Part shown: positions 9,534 to 27,159 of the stretch, piece by piece
Position numbering within the stretch: the stretch's first letter is position 1
Layout: each line of letters starts with the position of its first letter
DNA from: Candidatus Obscuribacteraceae bacterium
GTDB taxonomy: Bacteria; Cyanobacteriota; Vampirovibrionia; Obscuribacterales; Obscuribacteraceae
Reading direction: 5' to 3'
Assembly (NCBI GenBank): GCA_044226015.1
Contig: JBGAHS010000006.1
Coordinates: 256,001-320,000 of the forward strand
Length of the DNA stretch: 64,000 bases
Made by a program: the position numbers and the translations under genes
The notes under the pieces: model-generated
The model's database searches: none
What the model saw: the letters and a program-made list of their open reading frames with translations, nothing else
What the model was told of the DNA's origin: nothing

Positions 9534-10583
9534 ATGAGCACATTCAAAGTATTCCTAAAGAGTCAATTCCCCTTATTCTTAGAAGCGTTGAAAACACAGG
9601 GAACGGTCTACGCTCCTGTGAAAGTTTCAAAAGAATCCTATTCATTTAAGGCAGTGCAAAATGCCGACGAAATAGCATTTGAAGCGCTTCGAACAATTTT
9701 GCCGCCCAAGAAATTCTTTTATCCGCAAGAAGAGAAGGTATTCAGTTACAGTGGCGACAAAATCATCGAGCCAGTGGAGAAGACAGAGTACAAGGTAATC
9801 TTCGGCATTCACCCTTGCGACCTCGCAGGCCTAGATGTACTAGATAGCATACTCACCCACGAGCCTGCGGATCCTAAGTACATTGCAAAACGCCAGCAAT
9901 CGCTAATTGTTGGATTCTCTTGCTTGCCGGACAAACATTGTTTCTGCAAATCTATGGGAAACGGCTGCCCCGACAAAGGCTACGACATGTTTCTGACTGA
10001 GCTTTCGGAACACTACTATCTCGAAATCAAGACTTCTAAAGGACTCATCTTCGCTGAAAAAGTCAGTGATATCTTGCAGCCCGTTTCAGATCAAGATAAA
10101 GACGATTACAAACGCTTCTGGCAAGAACGCGATGGTATGTTTACGAACGGCTTTGTTCCAGACAATTTGACTTCTACCTTTGAGATGGAATGGGACAATC
10201 CGATCTGGGATGAATTGGGACAGCGTTGCCTCAGCTGTGGTAATTGCACTCCAGTTTGCCCTACATGCTATTGTTTCGACCTTGTCGATATTGCAAACCT
10301 GAACGGAACCGATGGCGACCGCGTCAGACAATGGGACAGCTGCCAATTTGTCGGTTTCGCGAAGGTGGCTGGCGACTATAATTTCCGACCCACACCAGTT
10401 GATCGTTTGAAATTCTGGTATCGCCACAAACTTCATGGCTTTGAAGATGCCTATGCTTTCCGCACCTGTGTTGGTTGCGGACGGTGCACAGTTTCTTGCC
10501 CATCAGGAATTGATGACATCGTTGGAGTGGTGAAAGCCCTGCAAGAAAGCAAGGAAAAGAAAGGGGTAAAGCATCATGAATAA
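9534..10583 (+). CDS. hydB: Group 3b [NiFe]-hydrogenase Fe-S (beta) subunit, AsrA/HydB-like
   Basis: CLSCGNCTPVCPTCYCF and CVGCGRCTVSCP clusters; first gene of a beta-gamma-delta-alpha run. Confidence 0.88.
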   Translation: MSTFKVFLKSQFPLFLEALKTQGTVYAPVKVSKESYSFKAVQNADEIAFEALRTILPPKKFFYPQEEKVFSYSGDKIIEPVEKTEYKVIFGIHPCDLAGLDVLDSILTHEPADPKYIAKRQQSLIVGFSCLPDKHCFCKSMGNGCPDKGYDMFLTELSEHYYLEIKTSKGLIFAEKVSDILQPVSDQDKDDYKRFWQERDGMFTNGFVPDNLTSTFEMEWDNPIWDELGQRCLSCGNCTPVCPTCYCFDLVDIANLNGTDGDRVRQWDSCQFVGFAKVAGDYNFRPTPVDRLKFWYRHKLHGFEDAYAFRTCVGCGRCTVSCPSGIDDIVGVVKALQESKEKKGVKHHE

Positions 10584-11427
10584 CATCGCAAATCCCTACA
10601 CACCGGTTCGCTGTGTCATACGAAAAATTGTACCGATGTCGCACGATAATTTTCTCTTCGAGTTCAAGATTCCAGAAGAAGCGAACCTAAATAGTCTGCC
10701 AGGTCAATTTTTCGAACTCTGGATTCCAGGGGTTGGAGAATGTCCAATATCTGTATGCTCGGGAAGAAACTCGCATACTATACAACTTACAGTTAGAAAA
10801 GTGGGTAGAGTAACAAGCGCTCTATTCGATATGAGCGAGGGTGATTGGGTTGGACTGAGGGGTCCTTACGGAGTCGGTTTCCCTGTCGAACGCTACAAAG
10901 GACACAATCTCTGCTTAATCGCCGGCGGGTTAGGTATCGCGCCCATTCGTTCGCTACTCGAATATGTGCTCGACAATCGCGAAGACTATGGCAAACTAAC
11001 ATTGATTTATGGCATGCGGCACTCAACCGATTTGTTGTTTCGTCAGGAAATGCTGCAGTTGATGCGACGTCGCGACATCGAAGTCTTCATCGCAGCCGAA
11101 GACGTCGAAGGTCCAGCTCTGCCACCAGTAGCGGTGCAGCTCGGAAGAGTCACGGACATGATCAGACTTTCGCAAGTTGACGAAAGCTACGAAATCGCGG
11201 TGTGTGGACCACCAGTCATGTACAAGTATGTAATTGAAGACCTGAAGAAGAAGAATGTCAGCACTGAAAGAATCTGGCTATCGCTAGAAAGACATATGAA
11301 GTGCGGCATAGGAAAATGCGGTCATTGCTTTATTGGAGGCAAACTCACATGTAAGGCTGGACCGGTGTTTCCTCTGACTGACCTGCAGTTGGCTTGCGAA
11401 GTTGTCGAATGCAAAGGAGAAAGATAA
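10576..11427 (+). CDS. hydG: Group 3b hydrogenase FAD/NAD(P)-binding (gamma) subunit
   Basis: PGQF, RGPYG, AGGLGIAP, CGPPVM and MKCGIGKCGHC [2Fe-2S] motif. Confidence 0.9.
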   Translation: MNNIANPYTPVRCVIRKIVPMSHDNFLFEFKIPEEANLNSLPGQFFELWIPGVGECPISVCSGRNSHTIQLTVRKVGRVTSALFDMSEGDWVGLRGPYGVGFPVERYKGHNLCLIAGGLGIAPIRSLLEYVLDNREDYGKLTLIYGMRHSTDLLFRQEMLQLMRRRDIEVFIAAEDVEGPALPPVAVQLGRVTDMIRLSQVDESYEIAVCGPPVMYKYVIEDLKKKNVSTERIWLSLERHMKCGIGKCGHCFIGGKLTCKAGPVFPLTDLQLACEVVECKGER

Positions 11428-12197
11428 TGCCTTGCAATCCACAAGTACTCCCATGTATTGCGGTAGAAAGTCTCACAGGATGCGCTGGCGAGTTGCTAGT
11501 GATTCTTGAGAATATGGACAAGCTCTTGCCCTTTGTACGTGTAGTTAGCTTTCCATTTGCCCAAAGTCATAATGAAAACCGTCCAGTAGACATCTCGTTC
11601 GTCGAAGGCAGCGTCAGCCAACCGCATGACCTTGAGAAGTTGAAGCGAATAAGAGCCAACTCTCGCTGGTTGGTTGCCGTGGGCAACTGCGCCGTCTGGG
11701 GATGCGTCCAGAAAGGAGCCTGCACCCATTGCAAAGCAGAGACCTTGATGCATTCTGTTTATGGTGAAGATTCGAAGATTGCCGTGATGGAAGCAACGCC
11801 GCTCGAAGAACACGTGCGGGTCGACGTCAAATTATCAGGCTGTCCGATTAACGCCACTCAGTTCCTTGCAATTACAGCAAACTTGTTGCGAGATCATCTG
11901 CCACTTATCACGCACAAACCAGTTTGCCTGGAATGCAAACTAAAAGAGAATCCATGTGTTTTAATTGAAGACAATCTTCCTTGCCTGGGTCCGGTGACTT
12001 CAGCTGGATGCGGTGCCTTGTGTCCGAGCGTGGGCGCGGCGTGCTATGGTTGCTGGGGTCCCTGCGAATCTCCACAAATGGATGCCATGGCGACAGTCTT
12101 AGAGGAAAAAGGCTATCATCTCGCCGAAGTAATGAGTCGATTGCACACATTTGGTGCACCAGAAGACATGTTCACACGAATGGTCAGGAAAAACTAA
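11427..12197 (+). CDS. hydD: Group 3b hydrogenase small (delta) subunit
   Basis: LTGCAGE, VEGSV, GNCA, SGCP, VCLEC, CLGPVT.AGC.ALCP, CYGCWG; ATG overlaps the upstream stop. Confidence 0.9.
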   Translation: MPCNPQVLPCIAVESLTGCAGELLVILENMDKLLPFVRVVSFPFAQSHNENRPVDISFVEGSVSQPHDLEKLKRIRANSRWLVAVGNCAVWGCVQKGACTHCKAETLMHSVYGEDSKIAVMEATPLEEHVRVDVKLSGCPINATQFLAITANLLRDHLPLITHKPVCLECKLKENPCVLIEDNLPCLGPVTSAGCGALCPSVGAACYGCWGPCESPQMDAMATVLEEKGYHLAEVMSRLHTFGAPEDMFTRMVRKN

Positions 12198-13510
12198 TGA
12201 GCGAGCAAGAGAAAAAAGTAATCGAAATTCCCGAGATTTCCCGAGTCGAAGGGCACTCCGCTGTGACTATTGACCTGGTTGATGGCAAAGTTTCAGAGGT
12301 GAAACTTGATGTCTTTGAAGGCACACGTTTTTTCGAAAAGATAGTGCTCGGGCACAAATATAGTGAGGTTATTCACATTACATCTCGCGTCTGCGCGATA
12401 TGTTCGACAGGGCATGTTATTGCGGCAGCGAACGCGGTCGAGAATGCTTTCGGAATAAAGCTATCAGAAAGAGCGTTGCTGCTCCGCGAATTAATGCATC
12501 TAGGCATGATCATCGAGTCCCACGCCACGCACATCTGCGCACTGGCTCTGCCAGACTTTGTGGGTGCTGGAACCCTATATGAATTAGCCTCTAAGCATGA
12601 AGCAGAATTCCAGATATGGACACAACTTCGTGCATTAGGAGCCGAGGTTCAAACTGTAGTTGGTGGGCGTCCATTCCATCCGGTCAATATTAAGGTCGGC
12701 GGATTCTCACGTTTTCCCGATGCAGCTGAGCTGAATGCACTTCTGCCAAAACTCGAAGAGGGCTTGCCTCTGGCAGAATCACTGGCTCACCTGCTTCTGA
12801 CCTTCAAGTTGCCCGTTGAGAAGACCGCGCCTGCAACTTTCGTAGCGCTGAAACCGCCTGGAGATATTTACGGTTATTTCGGAACCGAGGTTCAATCTAG
12901 CGATGATTGGAGCGCACCAATTAGCGAGTACAAGAAATACTTAAATGAAAAAGTGGTATCACATAGCCACGCCAAGCGTTCAATGATCAAAGACAAACCA
13001 ATAATGGTCGGTTCGCTTGCACGTCTTAGATTTTATGCCGATAGGTTGAAACCACGAGCGCGCGCAATTTATGTAAACACAGAAATTGCAAAAGGCAATT
13101 TCAACACCTTGCTCAACAATATTGCACAATCGATTGAGGTTGTCGAAGCCATTGAGCGAGCAAAAGAAGTTATTCAACTCATCGCGCAATCAAATGAGCA
13201 CGAGCATTCAGCGGAAGTAAAGATTCGCAGCACAGAAGGCGTGGGCGCCGTCGAGTGCCCGAGAGGAACGCTCTACCATTGCTACTCGTTTGATGAATCG
13301 GGAGCAGTCGTTGCAGCGGATATGATTACTCCTTCAGCACAAAATACGGCACGAATTGAACAAGACATAGCTTTCGTGGTCGACAACATTGGTCAACCAG
13401 AGGATGCGGTTCTTCAAGCAAGGTTAGAGACACTCGTTCGCGCCTACGACCCATGCAATACCTGCGCCACTCATATGGTCACAGTAAATCACAAAAGAAC
13501 ACAAGGATAA
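12197..13510 (+). CDS. hydA: Group 3b [NiFe]-hydrogenase large (alpha) subunit
   Basis: SRVEGH, L1 RVCAICSTGH, ECPRG, L2 RAYDPCNTCATH, plus a cleavable C-terminal extension. Confidence 0.95.
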   Translation: MSEQEKKVIEIPEISRVEGHSAVTIDLVDGKVSEVKLDVFEGTRFFEKIVLGHKYSEVIHITSRVCAICSTGHVIAAANAVENAFGIKLSERALLLRELMHLGMIIESHATHICALALPDFVGAGTLYELASKHEAEFQIWTQLRALGAEVQTVVGGRPFHPVNIKVGGFSRFPDAAELNALLPKLEEGLPLAESLAHLLLTFKLPVEKTAPATFVALKPPGDIYGYFGTEVQSSDDWSAPISEYKKYLNEKVVSHSHAKRSMIKDKPIMVGSLARLRFYADRLKPRARAIYVNTEIAKGNFNTLLNNIAQSIEVVEAIERAKEVIQLIAQSNEHEHSAEVKIRSTEGVGAVECPRGTLYHCYSFDESGAVVAADMITPSAQNTARIEQDIAFVVDNIGQPEDAVLQARLETLVRAYDPCNTCATHMVTVNHKRTQG

Positions 13511-18813: not shown

Positions 18814-19974
18814 CTAATTTATGGAGTAATCAACCCACTGCGCTTCCGAAGCTTCTGGCACTTCAAGTTTGCTAAGCAACTTACCCAACACTCTCTCCGG
18901 CACCGTGCTTTCACGCTCGGCGTTTCGCCGAAACAATTCGCTAAAGGATTCTGGTTCAACATACACAATGCGAAATCGCGCTTTGTATGGTGCCATGAAT
19001 GAAATCAAAGTAGAGCGCAGAGAACTCGTGACGTTCGTTGCATTCCAAACGAAGTCGCTTCCGTTGCGCAAGTACTCCAGAGCCTTCTGTCGAGCTCTTG
19101 CGACGACAGCACCCTGCGAGTCTTCGGGGTCGATGTCTAATTCATCTCTGATTTCGTCGAGTGACACCACCGGTAATCCATGGCAGTTATCCTCGACCCA
19201 CGAGTCTTTTCCAGCCCCTGGCAGTCCAGACATTATTGTCACAATCAATCGCGAATCATCAAAAACATCGCGATCAGGAAGATTTGAATTGCTGTGAAAG
19301 TAATGAAATTTACTGTGCTCACTAGCAAACTCATAGGGCGATGAAGAGCATTTGTTCTCAGTACAAAATTCCTTGAACAGCTGCAATCGAGAATACAGAT
19401 CTTGCTTATCAGAACAATCACGTCCACCAATATCAGCTTCTGCAAGGACAGAGAGCCAATCTAAGCGAACAGACATACTTGCACGAATCACAGCTTTGAC
19501 GGGATCTTCCTTTTCGTAGAACCACATCGGAAGTCCGGAAAATCGGACTAATTTAGAAATTTGTTCTCTCAAACTGAACGGTGGGAAACTAAATTCATCT
19601 GATGTCCAAAGAATCTCACGCGCCATAGAAGTACCTATGCGTGTGTGCTTGAGAGATGTTATTTTGCCTTCGTGATCAATTTTCGTTGTGGCTGGCTTTG
19701 CAACATCGTGCAATAGCGCGGCAGCAAACACAACATTTCTAGGAGTTTCATCCAGCGATTGCCAGCTTTCAGAAGCAACAAGCGACTCGCATACGAGTTG
19801 CGTATGCTGAAACACATCACCTTCTGCATGGTGATGGGGATCTTGCAAGCAGCCTTTCATGGGCTTCATCCAAGAGCACTTTTCCAGCTTTTGCCACTGA
19901 ATTTTCTCGCCAGGTTTCGGACACAGACTAAAAGACCATTTATTTTGCATGGAACTATTATTCGAAGCGTTCAT
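18814..19974 (-). CDS. HD-domain phosphoesterase fused to a P-loop polynucleotide kinase (HD-Pnk-like)
   Basis: HAEGDVFQHT, ALLHDVAK and EADIGGR (HD); GLPGAGKD P-loop, SLDEIR (DxxR) and WNATN (kinase). Confidence 0.85.
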   Translation of the reverse strand: MNASNNSSMQNKWSFSLCPKPGEKIQWQKLEKCSWMKPMKGCLQDPHHHAEGDVFQHTQLVCESLVASESWQSLDETPRNVVFAAALLHDVAKPATTKIDHEGKITSLKHTRIGTSMAREILWTSDEFSFPPFSLREQISKLVRFSGLPMWFYEKEDPVKAVIRASMSVRLDWLSVLAEADIGGRDCSDKQDLYSRLQLFKEFCTENKCSSSPYEFASEHSKFHYFHSNSNLPDRDVFDDSRLIVTIMSGLPGAGKDSWVEDNCHGLPVVSLDEIRDELDIDPEDSQGAVVARARQKALEYLRNGSDFVWNATNVTSSLRSTLISFMAPYKARFRIVYVEPESFSELFRRNAERESTVPERVLGKLLSKLEVPEASEAQWVDYSIN

Positions 19975-19975
19975 C

Positions 19976-20755
19976 TCAAAATATGCTTGTCTCCGCGCTT
20001 AACTTATTGGGAATTATCGGTCTATCTAACCAATGAGATTCGGACTCGACAACAGTGCTTAAGAAGCTTTTTCGAACGAGTTTATAGCGCTCAATTACCG
20101 AACCATTTTCTTCAACCTTGATGTAGAGCCCTTCCATATCGAGGGAAGAATCAGTCTCTCTCAAAGCTATTTCCGACGACAATGAATGACTTTTGCAATA
20201 ACTCAGAAGATCATCCACGTGATTTGCCGAAATGAAACGAGACTTTCCCAGCAAGCTCAACAATGATTTGTGATCACTAAAAGCGCCTGTTGAAAGCACT
20301 TTCACAGAACGAACGCAGCTTCCTGCAAAAATCTTCTCTCTTCTTTCAGTAGATAGAAAGGTTCGGGTTTCGCGATCATAAACATCAAATTCTAGCCAAT
20401 AGTGCGGCAATTCATTGTAATAAACAGTGTGTTTAGCATACAGCCACTCACCGTATGCGATGAATCGACTACCAAGCAATTCCCTCAATTCATTCGCATG
20501 AGTGTTCGCCCACTGCTTGAACAGGTTGAAATGCTTCTCTCTCTCCCCTCCTGTAAGGAAGTGCCCACGACTCTGCAAGAAGAGAGTTCCATCTTGGTCA
20601 AAGCTTAGCGCAGAATTCGCACCATCCATTTTTTCCTCAACCACCAAATGGCGTCCCCTAATCTGTGAAAAAGGAACGCTATCGAGGTCTTCGTCGCCAG
20701 GCTGAAATCGCGAGCCCTGAATATGGTGAGTACGAGGGTACTTGATCAGCTGCAT
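19976..20755 (-). CDS. ATP-dependent RNA ligase family nucleotidyltransferase
   Basis: KYPRT, motif I EKMDG, SRG, YGEW, FDVYD, EGLYIK, YKLVR; no OB domain. Confidence 0.88.
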   Translation of the reverse strand: MQLIKYPRTHHIQGSRFQPGDEDLDSVPFSQIRGRHLVVEEKMDGANSALSFDQDGTLFLQSRGHFLTGGEREKHFNLFKQWANTHANELRELLGSRFIAYGEWLYAKHTVYYNELPHYWLEFDVYDRETRTFLSTERREKIFAGSCVRSVKVLSTGAFSDHKSLLSLLGKSRFISANHVDDLLSYCKSHSLSSEIALRETDSSLDMEGLYIKVEENGSVIERYKLVRKSFLSTVVESESHWLDRPIIPNKLSAETSIF

Positions 20756-20757
20756 AA

Positions 20758-21456
20758 CTATGGTGAGACGTACTTTGTTGCCACTGCAATGAGGTGGTTC
20801 AAAACGCCTTGAAATCGGGGCTTAGCGCCAGCGTCAGAAATCATCGTCTGCAGAGCTTTCTTATCTAACAAATGAATATGCTCAGGGTTATCATCTTCAG
20901 ATGATGGAACCGAAATAATGATGTTGCGGCGACTCACCCGCACGGCCTCTTTGATTGCTTTGGCTGGGTCTTTCATGTGCTCGAGAACTTCAAGCAACGT
21001 CACCACGTCGAAGGATTTATCAGGGAACGGAAGAGACCGGGCATCACCCTTGATGGCATCAAGTCTAACGATGCCGCCTTTATGAACAGCCAACATGTCG
21101 TCAACACGGTCTTCTCTCAAATCCATGCACGTTACATCTAACCTTTGAAATTCGGTCAAAAGCGGCCAGACGAAGACGCCTCTGCCGGAACCGATGTCCA
21201 ACAAATTGCTGGGAGCTAAGCCTTTCAAGACTCCAAGCACGCGTTGTACACGAGCTAACTCCATCGTACGCTTGAATTTGTGGAGTTTTAGCCCAGACTG
21301 AGTGCCCAAATTGAAGAGTGTATTGCGTTCAGCCGAACTGAGCATTGCTAACGGTTTGGAGAAGATTTCGGGATCTGCCTCATTAGTGCCGAGCTTGCCG
21401 CGAACAAATGCTGCCGCAAGTTCCATGTGATAACGATCTTCAAGTTGTGTTTCCAC
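20758..21456 (-). CDS. Class I SAM-dependent methyltransferase (Hen1-like motifs)
   Basis: LLDIGSGRG, GDARSLPFPDKSFDVV, EVLEH, ISVP...PEH. Confidence 0.88.
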   Translation of the reverse strand: METQLEDRYHMELAAAFVRGKLGTNEADPEIFSKPLAMLSSAERNTLFNLGTQSGLKLHKFKRTMELARVQRVLGVLKGLAPSNLLDIGSGRGVFVWPLLTEFQRLDVTCMDLREDRVDDMLAVHKGGIVRLDAIKGDARSLPFPDKSFDVVTLLEVLEHMKDPAKAIKEAVRVSRRNIIISVPSSEDDNPEHIHLLDKKALQTMISDAGAKPRFQGVLNHLIAVATKYVSP

Positions 21457-21634
21457 GTAACAAAATCCCTAGATGCCAACTGCTGCTTAAATGAATTGAA
21501 CACATTATCGGGCGCTTTGTGCTGCATACGGTCCCGAAATCATATATTATCTTTAATCTCCTTCGGCAGGCGCAGCCATGCATGAGTCCCAGGTTTCAAG
21601 ATAAATTGATGAAAGTTGATGAGAGGTATGCCCA

Positions 21635-23963: not shown

Positions 23964-24545
23964 TTATAATGTTTCAGATCGGAGAAATTCCTCATACGCT
24001 GGCGTCTTTTCTGTTTTGCAACCGCTCAAAGACTCAAGCGACTCTGTTCCTTGTGCGTTTTCGGCTTTGAGAAGTCCAGACCTCACACCAATTAATGTAT
24101 GCACATCGTTGAACAACGAACCATCCGATTTGGATAGTAGAAGCTCCTGCCGCAATTTGTCATAGCCTGACTTGTCTAAAACAAAGTTACTCTCGACGTC
24201 ACTCCACGCCTCTGCAGGTGGTGGCTCAAGTCCATTTTTGTGTTTCAGCAAACCGATTCTGTACAATGCAAAATTTCTTGTTTCGGAGATGATCTTCTTG
24301 CAAGCGTCATCCTTCACATATCCAAGTACATAGTCTGCCAGGGCTACTGTCACCCGGTCATTGGTAAGTGATTCAGCCATTCCAACTAACAGCTTTGCTG
24401 CACGATCATTTTTTGAATCCATCACTAGCGAATGGTACAGCAGTCTCAAGCAGCTACTTTCCATATCAGCTTGGGTCCATATTTCATTGGCAATTGTTGC
24501 TGCTTCATCGGCGTTCAAATCACCGATTGATTTGGTTTTGTTCAT
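23964..24545 (-). CDS. Hypothetical protein, candidate immunity protein
   Basis: 193-aa ORF starting 22 nt after the stop of the long 24568-26964 gene. Confidence 0.6.
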   Translation of the reverse strand: MNKTKSIGDLNADEAATIANEIWTQADMESSCLRLLYHSLVMDSKNDRAAKLLVGMAESLTNDRVTVALADYVLGYVKDDACKKIISETRNFALYRIGLLKHKNGLEPPPAEAWSDVESNFVLDKSGYDKLRQELLLSKSDGSLFNDVHTLIGVRSGLLKAENAQGTESLESLSGCKTEKTPAYEEFLRSETL

Positions 24546-24567: not shown

Positions 24568-26964
24568 CTATCGCCCCTGATAATTTGGAATACCTTGCCC
24601 ATGAAACTTTGTTCTTAGAGATCTAATTGAGCTATCAATCACACGCTTCCAATTATCATAACCAAGTTTTTCAAGTTCTTTGCCAAAACGCCATAACTCA
24701 TACGCCATTACAGTAGGATCATGGTGTGTATCAGACGACGGCAAAGGCGTCTCTAGTATATTCAGTTTTGACTTAGTACTTATGGTTTTTCCGATAATTT
24801 CAGCGAGTTCATTTTCTCTTTGCAAATCAAGTATTTTGGCAGCCTCCAGCCTGGTAAGAGAGGGATTTGCCGCTCTAAGGCGCGAATTCAAGTTGTCACG
24901 TGTCACGTCATCGGCAACGCCTATAACCAGATGCTTGCGCTCAATTGGCACATTCTTATCAGGAAACTCTAAGCTTGAATTTGACACGCGTGAATCTACA
25001 AGTTTTCCGTTTCGCAAGCCCAATGTTTTTTCGGTTACATCTATGGGATACATTTCACCCGTACTCTTATTAACGAGCAGTACGTCGCAACCTGCCATAT
25101 CGGCAGCATTTTCACCAGGCATTGGAAGGGCAATCCAGTCTTTAGCTCGCTCAGGACTTACTCCATTAGCCTTCAAGGCTGCCTGGAAGTGGGGATTTTT
25201 GTCGAGTCCCTTATCGAAGAGGGACTTCAATGAATTGCTCACCTCTCGCTGTGTACCGCTGCCTGAACGAGTTTCGATTGAACGATCTAGCCCCCCACTG
25301 CTGCGTCCATCCCAGCCATACTGTTTTACCAGTTTCTCTTTCACAACATCGTATAACGTGTCTTCTGCAGCGTAGTACTTTTCCAGAAGCTTTTCTTCTT
25401 CAGTAGCGCGATGTGCGTCTGGCTTTAGCTCAATATTCTTAGCTTCAGACCTGAGTTTTTCCACTTCATTTCTCAAATCGCCCAGTTGTTTTTCGAACTT
25501 TTTCTCAACTCGTGCCAATGCCTCAGCCTGCTCGAAGTTTTTGACTTGCAGGTTCTTCCGCATGTCCAAAAGTTCTTTGTTCATCTGACTGAGACCTTCT
25601 AAATTCTCAAGTACAGGTGTTTTCGCAAGATTATCAACGTCTCCAGCGAGCTTCGAGAACGATATCTCAGGAACCCGTCCTCTAGCGGCACCACCTGTTG
25701 TCTTCAAAATCTTTGACTCAGCACCTTCCTTGGCCGACATGGCTAGGAAACCATCATTCGGAATTCCAGCAAACGCAAGCTTCCTTTGACCGCCTCCATT
25801 TGCAAGCACAGCTAAGGCGTCCCAACATTCATCTCCCAGGGTTTTGAGTGATTTTGCGACGGACGAGAAATTGATCTGCTTCAAACATGCTTCTGTTTCC
25901 TCTCGGATTGCTGTTCCAAGTGTTGAACCTTCAGGAAGTCCAACACCTCCAGTAGCCAGGGTAAACGCAGCTTTATAGCAATCGGGACCCAATATTGATT
26001 TGCTCTTGTCGGCAAAATTTAGGAGTTCCTCATTGCTGCAATTTTTTAGCTTATCGTTCATATAGGCTAATTTTGCATTTCTCTCTCTGTGCTCAGGCGA
26101 ATTGAGCTGATCGTTCGTTAAAAGAGTTATGCCCCCGACCAGCGCTGAAGCCAATATGGCAGGATGAGCCTTCTCCAAGATAGCACCAATTGCGGTGCCT
26201 GCAAGAAAATTGCTGCTACCTTCATGAACAGTTTGTGCCGTGTTCTTCGTAACTTGCTTGTGCGCTTCATCAGCAGCTCCAAACATAGGAGCGATTCCGA
26301 ATACAATTAGCTGTTTGCCAACTAGCCTGGCGTTGTCAGCGCCAATGAATTTACAAAGATCGGGACCAAGCAAGAGAGCCGAGGTTGCGGTCCCCATGTC
26401 TCCTTTGGCTATCTTGAGTGCTGCTATATTCTCTTTGCCAAACCTTTTTTCAGCACCGTCTATCAACGTGTTAGTGGCGGTATCGATTTTCGCCAGACGC
26501 TCTGCCTTCGAATTTTTCTGAGCAGCATCTTCAATTTGTCCGGTCTTCATATCGCCAGACTTATGTCCATCATGATTTATCAGTTCAGCTTTGACGTTTA
26601 GACTTACTTGGGGCAAAGTGCCACGCTCAGAAGACTGTTGCTTTGCCAGAGCTTGTGGTGAAACTTCCTTTTGCCGCTCAATCTTGATATTTGAATGCTT
26701 GTTATCAGAGTGAACTTGCGAATCAGCGCCTTTAGAGAAGAGTTCAGCCGCAGAAACGAACTTACCATGCTTATCACCAGCACCTGTGATGCCACTCTTT
26801 CCGCTTTCACGCTGATGCTTTCGTTGTTGCTTTACTTGTTCACTCAGATCTTTGAACCCAACCGTAGCTTCGGAACGCTCTTTCGACTCTAAGTTCACTC
26901 TATTGTGACTCTCAGCTTTAACTGACTGATGTTCTGCACACTTGTGATTGCCTTCGTTTAACAT
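24568..26964 (-). CDS. Large hypothetical protein with polymorphic-toxin-like architecture
   Basis: Low-complexity N-terminus, Gly/Ala hydrophobic helices, coiled coil, C-terminal ADMAGCDVLLVN...IDVTEK motif; start uncertain (26964 or 27021). Confidence 0.6.
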   Translation of the reverse strand: MLNEGNHKCAEHQSVKAESHNRVNLESKERSEATVGFKDLSEQVKQQRKHQRESGKSGITGAGDKHGKFVSAAELFSKGADSQVHSDNKHSNIKIERQKEVSPQALAKQQSSERGTLPQVSLNVKAELINHDGHKSGDMKTGQIEDAAQKNSKAERLAKIDTATNTLIDGAEKRFGKENIAALKIAKGDMGTATSALLLGPDLCKFIGADNARLVGKQLIVFGIAPMFGAADEAHKQVTKNTAQTVHEGSSNFLAGTAIGAILEKAHPAILASALVGGITLLTNDQLNSPEHRERNAKLAYMNDKLKNCSNEELLNFADKSKSILGPDCYKAAFTLATGGVGLPEGSTLGTAIREETEACLKQINFSSVAKSLKTLGDECWDALAVLANGGGQRKLAFAGIPNDGFLAMSAKEGAESKILKTTGGAARGRVPEISFSKLAGDVDNLAKTPVLENLEGLSQMNKELLDMRKNLQVKNFEQAEALARVEKKFEKQLGDLRNEVEKLRSEAKNIELKPDAHRATEEEKLLEKYYAAEDTLYDVVKEKLVKQYGWDGRSSGGLDRSIETRSGSGTQREVSNSLKSLFDKGLDKNPHFQAALKANGVSPERAKDWIALPMPGENAADMAGCDVLLVNKSTGEMYPIDVTEKTLGLRNGKLVDSRVSNSSLEFPDKNVPIERKHLVIGVADDVTRDNLNSRLRAANPSLTRLEAAKILDLQRENELAEIIGKTISTKSKLNILETPLPSSDTHHDPTVMAYELWRFGKELEKLGYDNWKRVIDSSIRSLRTKFHGQGIPNYQGR

Positions 26965-27159
26965 GGGTTCGTTACCACACTTGAGTAGACGCGAGATGCT
27001 CGAGCCAGGTGGAAGGAACAAATAAATGAACAGCGTCGCTGATCATCGTAACTGCAATCAATACTAGTAAGTCTTTGACCAGTAAATTGCTTCCACCAGT
27101 AAACGAATTATCGCGACCGAGTCTGAAATTTCCTTGAAAGTTAGAAAAAGGACGAAAAT

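What the first reader, a model, noticed from the sequence alone, without database searches (positions are those of the whole stretch)
18814..21456. Methyltransferase + RNA ligase + HD-kinase operon: candidate heal-seal-protect RNA repair system with a non-canonical parts list
Seen: three co-directional genes separated by only 2 nt and 1 nt. They encode a SAM methyltransferase, a stand-alone ATP-dependent ligase (KxDG plus motifs III-V, no OB fold), and an HD domain fused to a P-loop kinase with the Pnk-type DxxR. Established: HD-Pnk enzymes heal 2',3'-phosphate and 5'-OH ends. Pnkp-Hen1 and Pnkp1-Rnl-Hen1 systems heal, 2'-O-methylate and religate ribotoxin-cut RNA, using metallophosphoesterase or HAD phosphatases. 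Inference: this is a third architecture with the same logic, built from an HD phosphoesterase, a separate ligase and a small methyltransferase. It could counter ribotoxins or phage/defence RNases.
Basis: partly seen in the sequence, partly recalled or inferred. Interest (0 to 1): 0.85.

Follow-up and report, generated by a model that had tools for sequence, protein, structure and literature searches.

The report
Methylating RNA break-repair gene trio
Three adjacent bacterial genes (a methyltransferase, an RNA-ligase-type enzyme and a phosphatase-kinase) travel together across many phyla and likely mend cut RNA and methyl-mark the mended spot against re-cutting; the ligase-kinase pair is already known, while the methyltransferase appears to be an unnamed short relative of the RNA-protecting enzyme Hen1.

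Summary
Observation confirmed: three minus-strand ORFs (232, 259, 386 aa), 2 and 1 nt apart. The trio is conserved: 76 of 80 methyltransferase loci carry the ligase, 64 all three, in many phyla with variable flanks. The ligase + HD-Pnk pair is the core (43 of 45 ligase loci) and is already published (Runella; Deinococcus DR_B0100/DR_B0098, 25-27% identical). The methyltransferase is an accessory (36 of 53 ligase loci). It keeps Hen1's Arg + EhhEH constellation (0 of 49 unrelated methyltransferases), groups with Hen1 in two trees at moderate support, and is separately fused to T4 Rnl2-type RNA ligases (45 proteins). The ligase model's ten best structural matches are RNA ligases. Against: no Hen1 ligase-activating domain or distal arginine; Hen1 is not among the top fold matches; both characterised ligase relatives adenylate but mostly failed to ligate in vitro; the Deinococcus phenotype is radiation sensitivity; this HD domain has Ser for a usually conserved His. 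Verdict: new variant of a known kind, likely heal-methylate-seal RNA repair (0.6). The key 2016 review could not be read.

The parts
20758..21456 (-). Class I SAM methyltransferase, 232 aa, of a distinct unnamed family: about 55-residue helical N-terminal extension, basic HKFK motif, R69, D87-x-G-x-G-R-G, D112, E156-h-h-E159-H160, P184, D188-x-N190-P-E192-H193; predicted Hen1-like RNA 3'-end 2'-O-methyltransferase
   Evidence: invariants; model; alignment to Hen1; background; trees; Rnl2 fusions
19976..20755 (-). Stand-alone ATP-dependent ligase adenylation domain, 259 aa (PF09414), homologue of Deinococcus DR_B0100/LigB/DdrP; no OB fold, no Rnl2 C-terminal domain
   Evidence: ten best folds are RNA ligases or Rnl3-type; 24.5% over 257 columns to DR_B0100, shared C-terminal HW-x-x-x-P-x-x-PN
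18814..19974 (-). HD phosphoesterase + P-loop polynucleotide kinase fusion (HD-Pnk), 386 aa, homologue of DR_B0098; H57, H89-D90, K93, H110, D181, R185 kept; P-loop GLPGAGKD, D273-x-x-R276, WNATN, lid R354
   Evidence: 26.7% over 408 columns to DR_B0098
19537..19539 (-). Ser146 codon (TCC) at an HD-domain position that is His in 40 of 51 relatives and Ser in 10; may weaken or alter the phosphoesterase
21466..21470 (-). Shine-Dalgarno-like AGGGA, 9 nt before the GTG start of the methyltransferase
   Evidence: read from the sequence; function not tested

Best explanation
This is a conserved, patchily spread three-gene cassette that likely repairs nuclease-cut RNA: the HD-Pnk is predicted to strip the 2',3'-phosphate and phosphorylate the 5'-OH, the short Hen1-like methyltransferase would 2'-O-methylate the healed 3' end, and the ligase would then join the ends so that the junction resists re-cutting. 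Shown here: gene order and linkage, domain identities, conserved residues, homology to the Deinococcus LigB/HD-Pnk pair, and fusion of the same methyltransferase family to a second, unrelated RNA ligase family (Rnl2). From established work on relatives: HD-Pnk end healing and ligase self-adenylation. Inferred: RNA as substrate, the methylated atom, the order of steps, that sealing needs a partner because the ligase has neither an OB fold nor an Rnl2 C-domain, and a role against ribotoxins.
For: Linkage: 76 of 80 methyltransferase loci have the ligase, 64 of 80 all three; 66 and 60 of the 68 loci with at least 2.5 kb downstream; 3 of the 4 loci without it have a ligase match elsewhere in the genome and the fourth ends 64 nt after the gene; in a second sample 17 of 19 methyltransferase loci show the co-directional trio. 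No other neighbour is conserved. Ligase model: best matches NgrRnl (Z 17.2, rmsd 2.9, 191 aligned), T4 Rnl2 (15.4), REL1 (14.3), archaeal Rnl, Trl1, T4 Rnl1; first clear DNA ligase at rank 11, Z 11.6. Methyltransferase: aligns to Hen1 at R69, D87, D112, E156, E159, H160, P184 (3jwi/3jwg; hhalign 97.8%, E 9e-13); these are invariant in 60 of 60 except D112 (56 D, 4 E). PMC1397878 (passages) names the Arg and the first Glu of EhhEH as HEN1 features and says that Glu is rare in small-molecule methyltransferases. 0 of 49 unrelated class I methyltransferases have both; in the own genome the 2 of 19 motif-I ORFs with both are this gene and canonical Hen1. Sister to Hen1 in two trees (SH-aLRT 82; 92/77). 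45 of 84 proteins examined are Rnl2-type ligase + this methyltransferase in one chain, with the residues kept in 44-45 of 45; one such fusion lies next to a ligase/HD-Pnk pair (L250). Occasional neighbours are RNA-repair genes: RlaP in 3, Rnl2 in 2, MJ1316-2H-polymerase in 2, Hen1+Pnkp in 1 of 160 loci.
Against: Runella ligase adenylates but ligated none of the DNA or RNA substrates tested (PMC6097658); DR_B0100 likewise (PMC5397189), though one study reported DNA ligation with DR_B0098 and PprA, and the Deinococcus HD-Pnk mutant is radiation sensitive (PMC6300522). 17 of 53 close ligase loci lack the methyltransferase, as do the plasmid copies inspected. The methyltransferase scores 25 bits against a cut-off of 340 on the bacterial Hen1 model, matches only positions 259-397 of 462 and has no ligase-activating N-domain. 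The Hen1 alignment stops at residue 189: H193 as the fourth metal ligand is my inference, and the arginine of Hen1's R-H-x-D-H motif has no counterpart. Several small-molecule methyltransferases score as well as or better than Hen1 by sequence. Tree support is unstarred, long branches are present, and the careful mixture tree did not finish. hhEH alone is common (23 of 49), EhhEH occurs in 4 of 49, and the Arg could be scored in only 39 of 49. The window's HD domain has His-to-Ser at 146. The genome already has Hen1 and RtcB. The 80-locus sets are the best-scoring of 445 and 556 matches and lean to close relatives.
Confidence: 0.6

Rival explanations
1. The ligase + HD-Pnk core repairs RNA, but the methyltransferase modifies something other than the ribose at the break: a base, the ligase or kinase protein, or a small molecule.
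For: Best fold matches are small-molecule or uncharacterised methyltransferases (1xxl Z 21.3, rmsd 2.4, 164 aligned); best NCBIfam score is MftM, 80 bits, below its cut-off; Hen1's distal arginine and insertion are absent; the gene is optional.
Against: HEN1 itself is closest to small-molecule methyltransferases and had 1xxl and 1vl5 as best templates (PMC1397878); Arg + EhhEH in 0 of 49 background enzymes; fusion to Rnl2.
Confidence: 0.15
2. The cassette heals and seals DNA breaks after oxidative, radiation or desiccation damage, as proposed for the Deinococcus ligB operon, and the methyltransferase is a co-regulated accessory.
For: DR_B0098 loss gives radiation sensitivity; one report of DNA ligation by DR_B0100 with DR_B0098 and PprA (PMC6300522); Runella HD-Pnk is described as a DNA/RNA end-healing enzyme (title cited).
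Against: No OB fold; RNA ligases fill the first ten structural ranks; a Hen1-type enzyme needs a 2'-OH, which DNA lacks; Rnl2 fusion and RlaP neighbours; homology to Deinococcus is only 25-27%.
Confidence: 0.12
3. The cassette protects or marks broken RNA ends without rejoining them: kinase and ligase leave a 5'-adenylated end, the methyltransferase blocks the 3' end, and sealing is left to another ligase (Rnl2, RtcB, Pnkp) or does not occur.
For: Both characterised ligase relatives stop at enzyme-AMP in most assays; the ligase lacks any nucleic-acid-binding accessory domain; an Rnl2 gene is inserted in 2 loci and the Rnl2-methyltransferase fusion lies beside the pair in L250.
Against: All ligase motifs are invariant in 62 homologues; 158 of 160 loci have no Rnl2 nearby; Pnkp and Rnl ligases that are inactive alone are switched on by a partner (PMC4411300).
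Confidence: 0.1

Closest known systems
Runella slithyformis cluster Tpt1 / MTase-HIT / ligase / HD-Pnk (PMC6097658, introduction passages)
   Same: Ligase directly upstream of HD-Pnk, with a predicted SAM methyltransferase gene upstream of the ligase.
   Different: There the methyltransferase is fused to a HIT domain, paired with Tpt1 and 152 nt from the ligase; here it is a stand-alone 232-aa protein 2 nt from the ligase, with no Tpt1 or HIT as a regular partner. Runella sequences were not obtained, so whether its methyltransferase is of this family was not tested.
Deinococcus radiodurans ligB operon DR_B0100 / DR_B0099 (PARG) / DR_B0098 (HD-Pnk) (PMC6300522, PMC5397189 passages; locus L248)
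   Same: Homologous ligase (24.5% over 257 columns, E 9e-9) and HD-Pnk (26.7% over 408 columns, E 3e-18), same order.
   Different: PARG in place of a methyltransferase; DR_B0098 has the usual GKST P-loop and WDAT, this subfamily GKD and WNATN.
Bacterial Pnkp-Hen1 (TIGR04074 Hen1)
   Same: Same four predicted activities; methyltransferase core aligns at R, D, D, E, E, H, P.
   Different: HD instead of calcineurin-like phosphatase; separate ligase of another family (Pnkp-C/Hen1-N 4drf only Z 8.9); no Hen1 N-terminal ligase-activating domain; far below the family cut-off.
Pnkp1-Rnl-Hen1 of Capnocytophaga gingivalis (PMC4411300, parts 1-3 of 6 read)
   Same: Three separate proteins: end-healing enzyme, ligase, methyltransferase; repair there needs all three.
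   Different: HAD phosphatase, a 394-aa Rnl with insertion domain (4xrp Z 8.4), Hen1 with activating domain and encoded far from the other two; here one tight operon with an HD domain.
T4 Rnl2 family RNA ligases
   Same: Second-best fold match of the ligase (Z 15.4); Rnl2-type ligases occur fused to this methyltransferase family.
   Different: The window's ligase lacks the Rnl2 C-terminal domain and has KxDG, not KxHG, in motif I.

Membership tests
HD-Pnk (Runella/Deinococcus type) | N-terminal HD domain fused to C-terminal P-loop kinase | tested here: met
   Pfam HD + AAA_33; family profile hits both domains of DR_B0098, E 1.5e-52
HD-Pnk (Runella/Deinococcus type) | Encoded directly downstream of a PF09414 ligase | tested here: met
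   1-nt gap here; 43 of 45 ligase loci
HD-Pnk (Runella/Deinococcus type) | Full set of HD metal and phosphate ligands | tested here: inconclusive
   H57, H89, D90, K93, H110, D181, R185 present; position 146 is Ser (His in 40 of 51). That the matching His is essential in the Runella enzyme is recalled, not read.
HD-Pnk (Runella/Deinococcus type) | Pnk catalytic DxxR and P-loop lysine | tested here: met
   K256, D273, R276 in 51 of 51; P-loop variant GKD
HD-Pnk (Runella/Deinococcus type) | 2',3'-phosphoesterase and 5'-OH kinase activity | not testable with these tools
   needs biochemistry
DR_B0100/LigB-type short ATP-dependent ligase | Adenylation domain only, motifs I-V, N-terminal KYP and C-terminal HW..P..PN | tested here: met
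DR_B0100/LigB-type short ATP-dependent ligase | Strand-joining activity and substrate | not testable with these tools
   unresolved even for characterised relatives
Bacterial Hen1 (TIGR04074) | Score above the curated cut-off | tested here: not met
   25.2 bits against 340
Bacterial Hen1 (TIGR04074) | N-terminal ligase-activating domain | tested here: not met
   232 aa in all; match covers model positions 259-397 of 462 only
Bacterial Hen1 (TIGR04074) | Encoded with Pnkp | tested here: not met
   Hen1+Pnkp nearby in 1 of 160 loci; the genome's own Hen1 is on another contig
Hen1-type methyltransferase domain | Invariant Arg before motif I and EhhEH motif IV | tested here: met
   R69, E156, E159, H160 in 60 of 60 and aligned to Hen1
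Hen1-type methyltransferase domain | TPNxE(F/Y)N motif VI and distal R-H-x-D-H | tested here: inconclusive
   SVPSxxDxNPEH: Pro aligned, an invariant E-H follows, but the alignment ends at 189 and there is no Arg or insertion
Hen1-type methyltransferase domain | Closest structural neighbour is Hen1 | tested here: inconclusive
   generic class I fold, many near-tied rows
Hen1-type methyltransferase domain | Common clade with Hen1 | tested here: inconclusive
   sister groups in two trees, support 82 and 92/77, unstarred
Hen1-type methyltransferase domain | 2'-O-methylation of the 3'-terminal ribose | not testable with these tools
   needs biochemistry
Runella Tpt1/MTase-HIT cluster | Methyltransferase fused to HIT and linked to Tpt1 | tested here: not met
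   no HIT domain in the window protein; no Tpt1 among conserved neighbours

The most novel reading that the evidence does not exclude
The methyltransferase founds an unnamed sister family of Hen1 that plugs into at least two unrelated RNA ligase families (as a neighbour of LigB-type ligases and as a fusion to Rnl2), and in the trio it is the missing factor, as binding partner or through the 2'-O-methyl mark itself, that lets these orphan ligases seal RNA, giving a third, minimal route to repair with immunity.
Probability: 0.25. Interest if true: 0.8.

Novelty: new variant of a known kind. Interest (0 to 1): 0.58.

Why it matters
The LigB/HD-Pnk pair has an open problem: its ligases self-adenylate but have no agreed substrate or activity. 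A tightly linked Hen1-like methyltransferase points to RNA and gives a direct three-protein reconstitution test, as Hen1 did for Pnkp. If confirmed, repair with immunity would have been assembled a third time from different parts, in hundreds of species (445 matches among 185,579 species genomes). The single-chain Rnl2-methyltransferase fusion would be a compact methylate-and-ligate enzyme of possible use in RNA labelling.

Tried and rejected
Hen1 is not among the 50 rows of either VIA search or the Foldseek rows shown; this is not an exclusion. No solved relative of the ligase by sequence (best E 0.01). No PADLOC model for ligase or HD-Pnk; the methyltransferase only hits a generic domain of mad2. 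No methyltransferase relative in viral contigs and none over 80% of the length in plasmids. Promoter/terminator scan: 1 and 1 found against 4.1 and 3.3 expected, nothing usable. No RNA holder listed. ESM Atlas gives only generic methyltransferase clusters. A fourth regular partner was rejected: Cys-phosphatase 5 of 81 loci; RlaP 3, NADAR/ARG 4, Rnl2 2 of 160. The methyltransferase-ligase fusions P0275-P0277, P0210 and the methyltransferase-kinase P0280 were not used as evidence, since most look like frameshift or deletion products. The careful mixture-model tree on 76 rows did not finish in three runs; the 34-row tree left out 11 of the longest background rows and 14 more at random. GC of the region (0.46-0.47) equals the window's, so no sign of recent transfer. 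Literature searches found no description of this trio or of the Rnl2 fusion. Burroughs and Aravind 2016, Munir and Shuman 2017 (37) and Jain and Shuman 2011 (53) are not held and were not read; the 2016 review may well list this cassette, and Supplementary Fig. S2 of PMC12776372 (operons with 5'-phosphate ligases) was not seen.
Full report
Observation. The three ORFs are there as described: 21456..20758, 20755..19976 and 19974..18814 on the minus strand, 2 and 1 nt apart. Pfam gives a class I methyltransferase, RNA_ligase PF09414, and HD + AAA_33. Each is single-copy in the 8.2-Mb genome G000. The flanks (polyphosphate kinase divergent upstream, an esterase downstream) are not shared with relatives. 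The nearest relatives by score lie in Candidatus Obscuribacterales assemblies.

Conservation. A 42-sequence alignment of the methyltransferase found 445 relatives in the species-genome collection; the best 80 were kept. They come from Chloroflexota, Acidobacteriota, Planctomycetota, Bacteroidota, Myxococcota, Bacillota, cyanobacteria and others, by record title. 76 of 80 carry the ligase and 64 of 80 all three genes; with at least 2.5 kb downstream the counts are 66 and 60 of 68. Of the four without a ligase, three have a ligase match elsewhere in the genome (one of them partial, at a contig end) and one ends 64 nt after the gene. In a second sample (class of G906) 17 of 19 methyltransferase loci show the co-directional trio, one is an Rnl2 fusion beside the ligase/HD-Pnk pair, and one repeats L070. 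Conversely, among the best 80 of 556 ligase matches in metagenomes, HD-Pnk is present in 43 of 45 loci with enough downstream DNA and the methyltransferase in 36 of 53 with enough upstream DNA. So ligase + HD-Pnk is the core and the methyltransferase a frequent, nearly dedicated accessory. The cassette is patchy: ligase in 3 of 201 genomes of the own class, 8 of 401 in the phylum of G201, of which 7 are distant, methyltransferase in 3 of 401 in the phylum of G907. The pair without methyltransferase occurs on plasmids. Patchy spread with variable flanks suggests lateral movement (inference).

The ligase. All nucleotidyltransferase motifs are invariant or nearly so in 62 homologues. The model (pLDDT 95) is one adenylation domain. 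Its first ten structural matches are RNA ligases or Rnl3-type proteins (NgrRnl Z 17.2, T4 Rnl2 15.4, REL1 14.3; rank 8 is an Aquifex protein labelled putative DNA ligase); clear DNA ligases begin at Z 11.6, and the ligases of the two Hen1 systems score 8.9 and 8.4. It is a homologue of Deinococcus DR_B0100 (24.5% over 257 columns, shared ends). DR_B0100 and the Runella ligase form enzyme-AMP but did not join DNA or RNA in most tests (PMC5397189, one passage; PMC6097658, introduction passages); one study reported DNA ligation with DR_B0098 and PprA (PMC6300522, passages). In Pnkp-Hen1 the ligase is off until Hen1 binds, and Pnkp1-Rnl-Hen1 repairs only with all three proteins (PMC4411300, parts 1-3 of 6). 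That this ligase also needs a partner is my inference.

The HD-Pnk. It is homologous to DR_B0098 (26.7% over 408 columns). H57, K93, H110, D181, R185, K256, D273, R276 are invariant in 51 rows; H89 and D90 in 50. Two features stand out. The subfamily has GKD in the P-loop and Asn at Walker B where DR_B0098 has GKST and WDAT, possibly a swap of the Mg ligand (inference). The window's copy and 9 other rows have Ser at a position that is His in 40 of 51; my recollection, from no call, is that the matching His is essential in the Runella enzyme, so this copy's phosphoesterase may be weak or altered.

The methyltransferase. It forms a tight family (52% mean identity; 265 representatives at E up to 1e-30). 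The model (pLDDT 94) is a class I fold with a helical N-terminal extension. Fold searches return many near-tied small-molecule and uncharacterised methyltransferases and do not single out Hen1; the top two, 1xxl and 1vl5, are those that PMC1397878 found as best HEN1 templates (passages). By sequence profile, Clostridium Hen1 structures rank 4 and 5 of 26 and give the longest matched stretch, 65-189. R69, D87, D112, E156, E159, H160 and P184 align with Hen1's Arg, SAM-binding Asp pair, EhhEH and TPN proline. They hold in distant members too (R69 130 of 138 aligned rows, E156 133 of 143, H160 135 of 143, H193 116 of 126). None of 49 unrelated class I methyltransferases has both the Arg and EhhEH (4 have EhhEH, 6 the Arg, 39 could be scored for the Arg). 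Two trees place the family as sister to Hen1 with moderate, unstarred support. It is not a member of the bacterial Hen1 family: 25 bits against 340, no activating domain, no R-H-x-D-H; the invariant N-P-E-H may supply the distal His (inference).

Independent link to RNA. Searches for longer forms showed the same methyltransferase fused behind a T4 Rnl2-type ligase (RNA_ligase + T4_Rnl2_C). Of 84 proteins returned for one such fusion, 52 have the methyltransferase domain and 45 also the ligase motif I in front, with the predicted catalytic residues kept in 44-45 of 45. They range from 49 to 89% identity to the query, and the few source names are Myxococcota, so this may be a single fusion event. 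It ties the family to a second, unrelated RNA ligase family, which is the strongest argument for an RNA end as substrate. Occasional neighbours point the same way (RlaP, Rnl2, MJ1316-2H-polymerase, Hen1+Pnkp) but are rare.

Mechanism. Most likely (0.6): a transesterifying RNase leaves 2',3'-cyclic phosphate and 5'-OH; HD-Pnk converts these to 2',3'-diol and 5'-phosphate (known for relatives); the methyltransferase methylates the 2'-OH (inferred); the ligase, helped by a partner, seals (inferred); the junction resists re-cutting (known for Hen1 systems). Rivals: another methyl acceptor (0.15), DNA repair (0.12), end protection without sealing (0.1). The genome also has canonical Hen1 and RtcB, so the cassette is an additional route, perhaps for other substrates.

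Novelty. The ligase/HD-Pnk pair is published, and a methyltransferase-bearing cluster was noted in Runella. Ten literature searches found no account of this trio, of this methyltransferase family or of its Rnl2 fusion. Passages of PMC7824862, PMC9503650, PMC8220740 and PMC12776372 (part 1 of 5 and passages) did not mention it. The main review of RNA repair systems (Burroughs and Aravind 2016) is not held and may list it. Four earlier notes of this scan describe the same cassette in other genomes; a look-up with the fusion protein returned none. I class it as a new variant of a known kind, interest 0.58.

Noticed in passing
P0278, P0154 and relatives; L250:1-1050: Family of about 540-580-aa proteins that fuse a T4 Rnl2-type RNA ligase to this methyltransferase (45 of 84 proteins examined); in L250 it lies convergent with a ligase/HD-Pnk pair.
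   Followed up: partly
L071:7998-14998: The trio is followed directly by canonical Hen1, two RlaP genes and Pnkp: two methylating repair systems in one cluster.
   Followed up: partly
L058:9667-12576 and L051: An Rnl2-type ligase is inserted between ligase and HD-Pnk, and a small phosphatase-like ORF follows, in two Chloroflexaceae loci.
   Followed up: partly
L094:6082-8772, L118: Ligase + HD-Pnk followed by a long MJ1316 / EEP / 2H / poly(A)-polymerase-like fusion; in L094 the methyltransferase is absent.
   Followed up: no
L136, L143, L144, L097: NADAR, Macro, ADP-ribosylglycohydrolase and cytidylyltransferase-like genes beside the trio, echoing PARG in the Deinococcus operon.
   Followed up: no
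window 18814-19974: The HD-Pnk subfamily has GKD in the P-loop and Asn at Walker B (47 and 50 of 51), unlike DR_B0098; 10 of 51 have His-to-Ser in the HD domain.
   Followed up: partly
G000:C11:169060-170436; C11:876859-877995; C1:643595-644623: The same genome encodes a canonical bacterial Hen1 and two RtcB genes.
   Followed up: no
window 24568-27021 (-) and 23964-24545 (-): An 817-aa ORF and a 193-aa ORF directly behind it, both without Pfam match; the arrangement could be a secreted nuclease-type protein with its immunity gene, untested.
   Followed up: no
window 9534-13510 (+): Four-gene NiFe hydrogenase (sulfhydrogenase-like) operon followed by an acetyl-CoA hydrolase/transferase.
   Followed up: no
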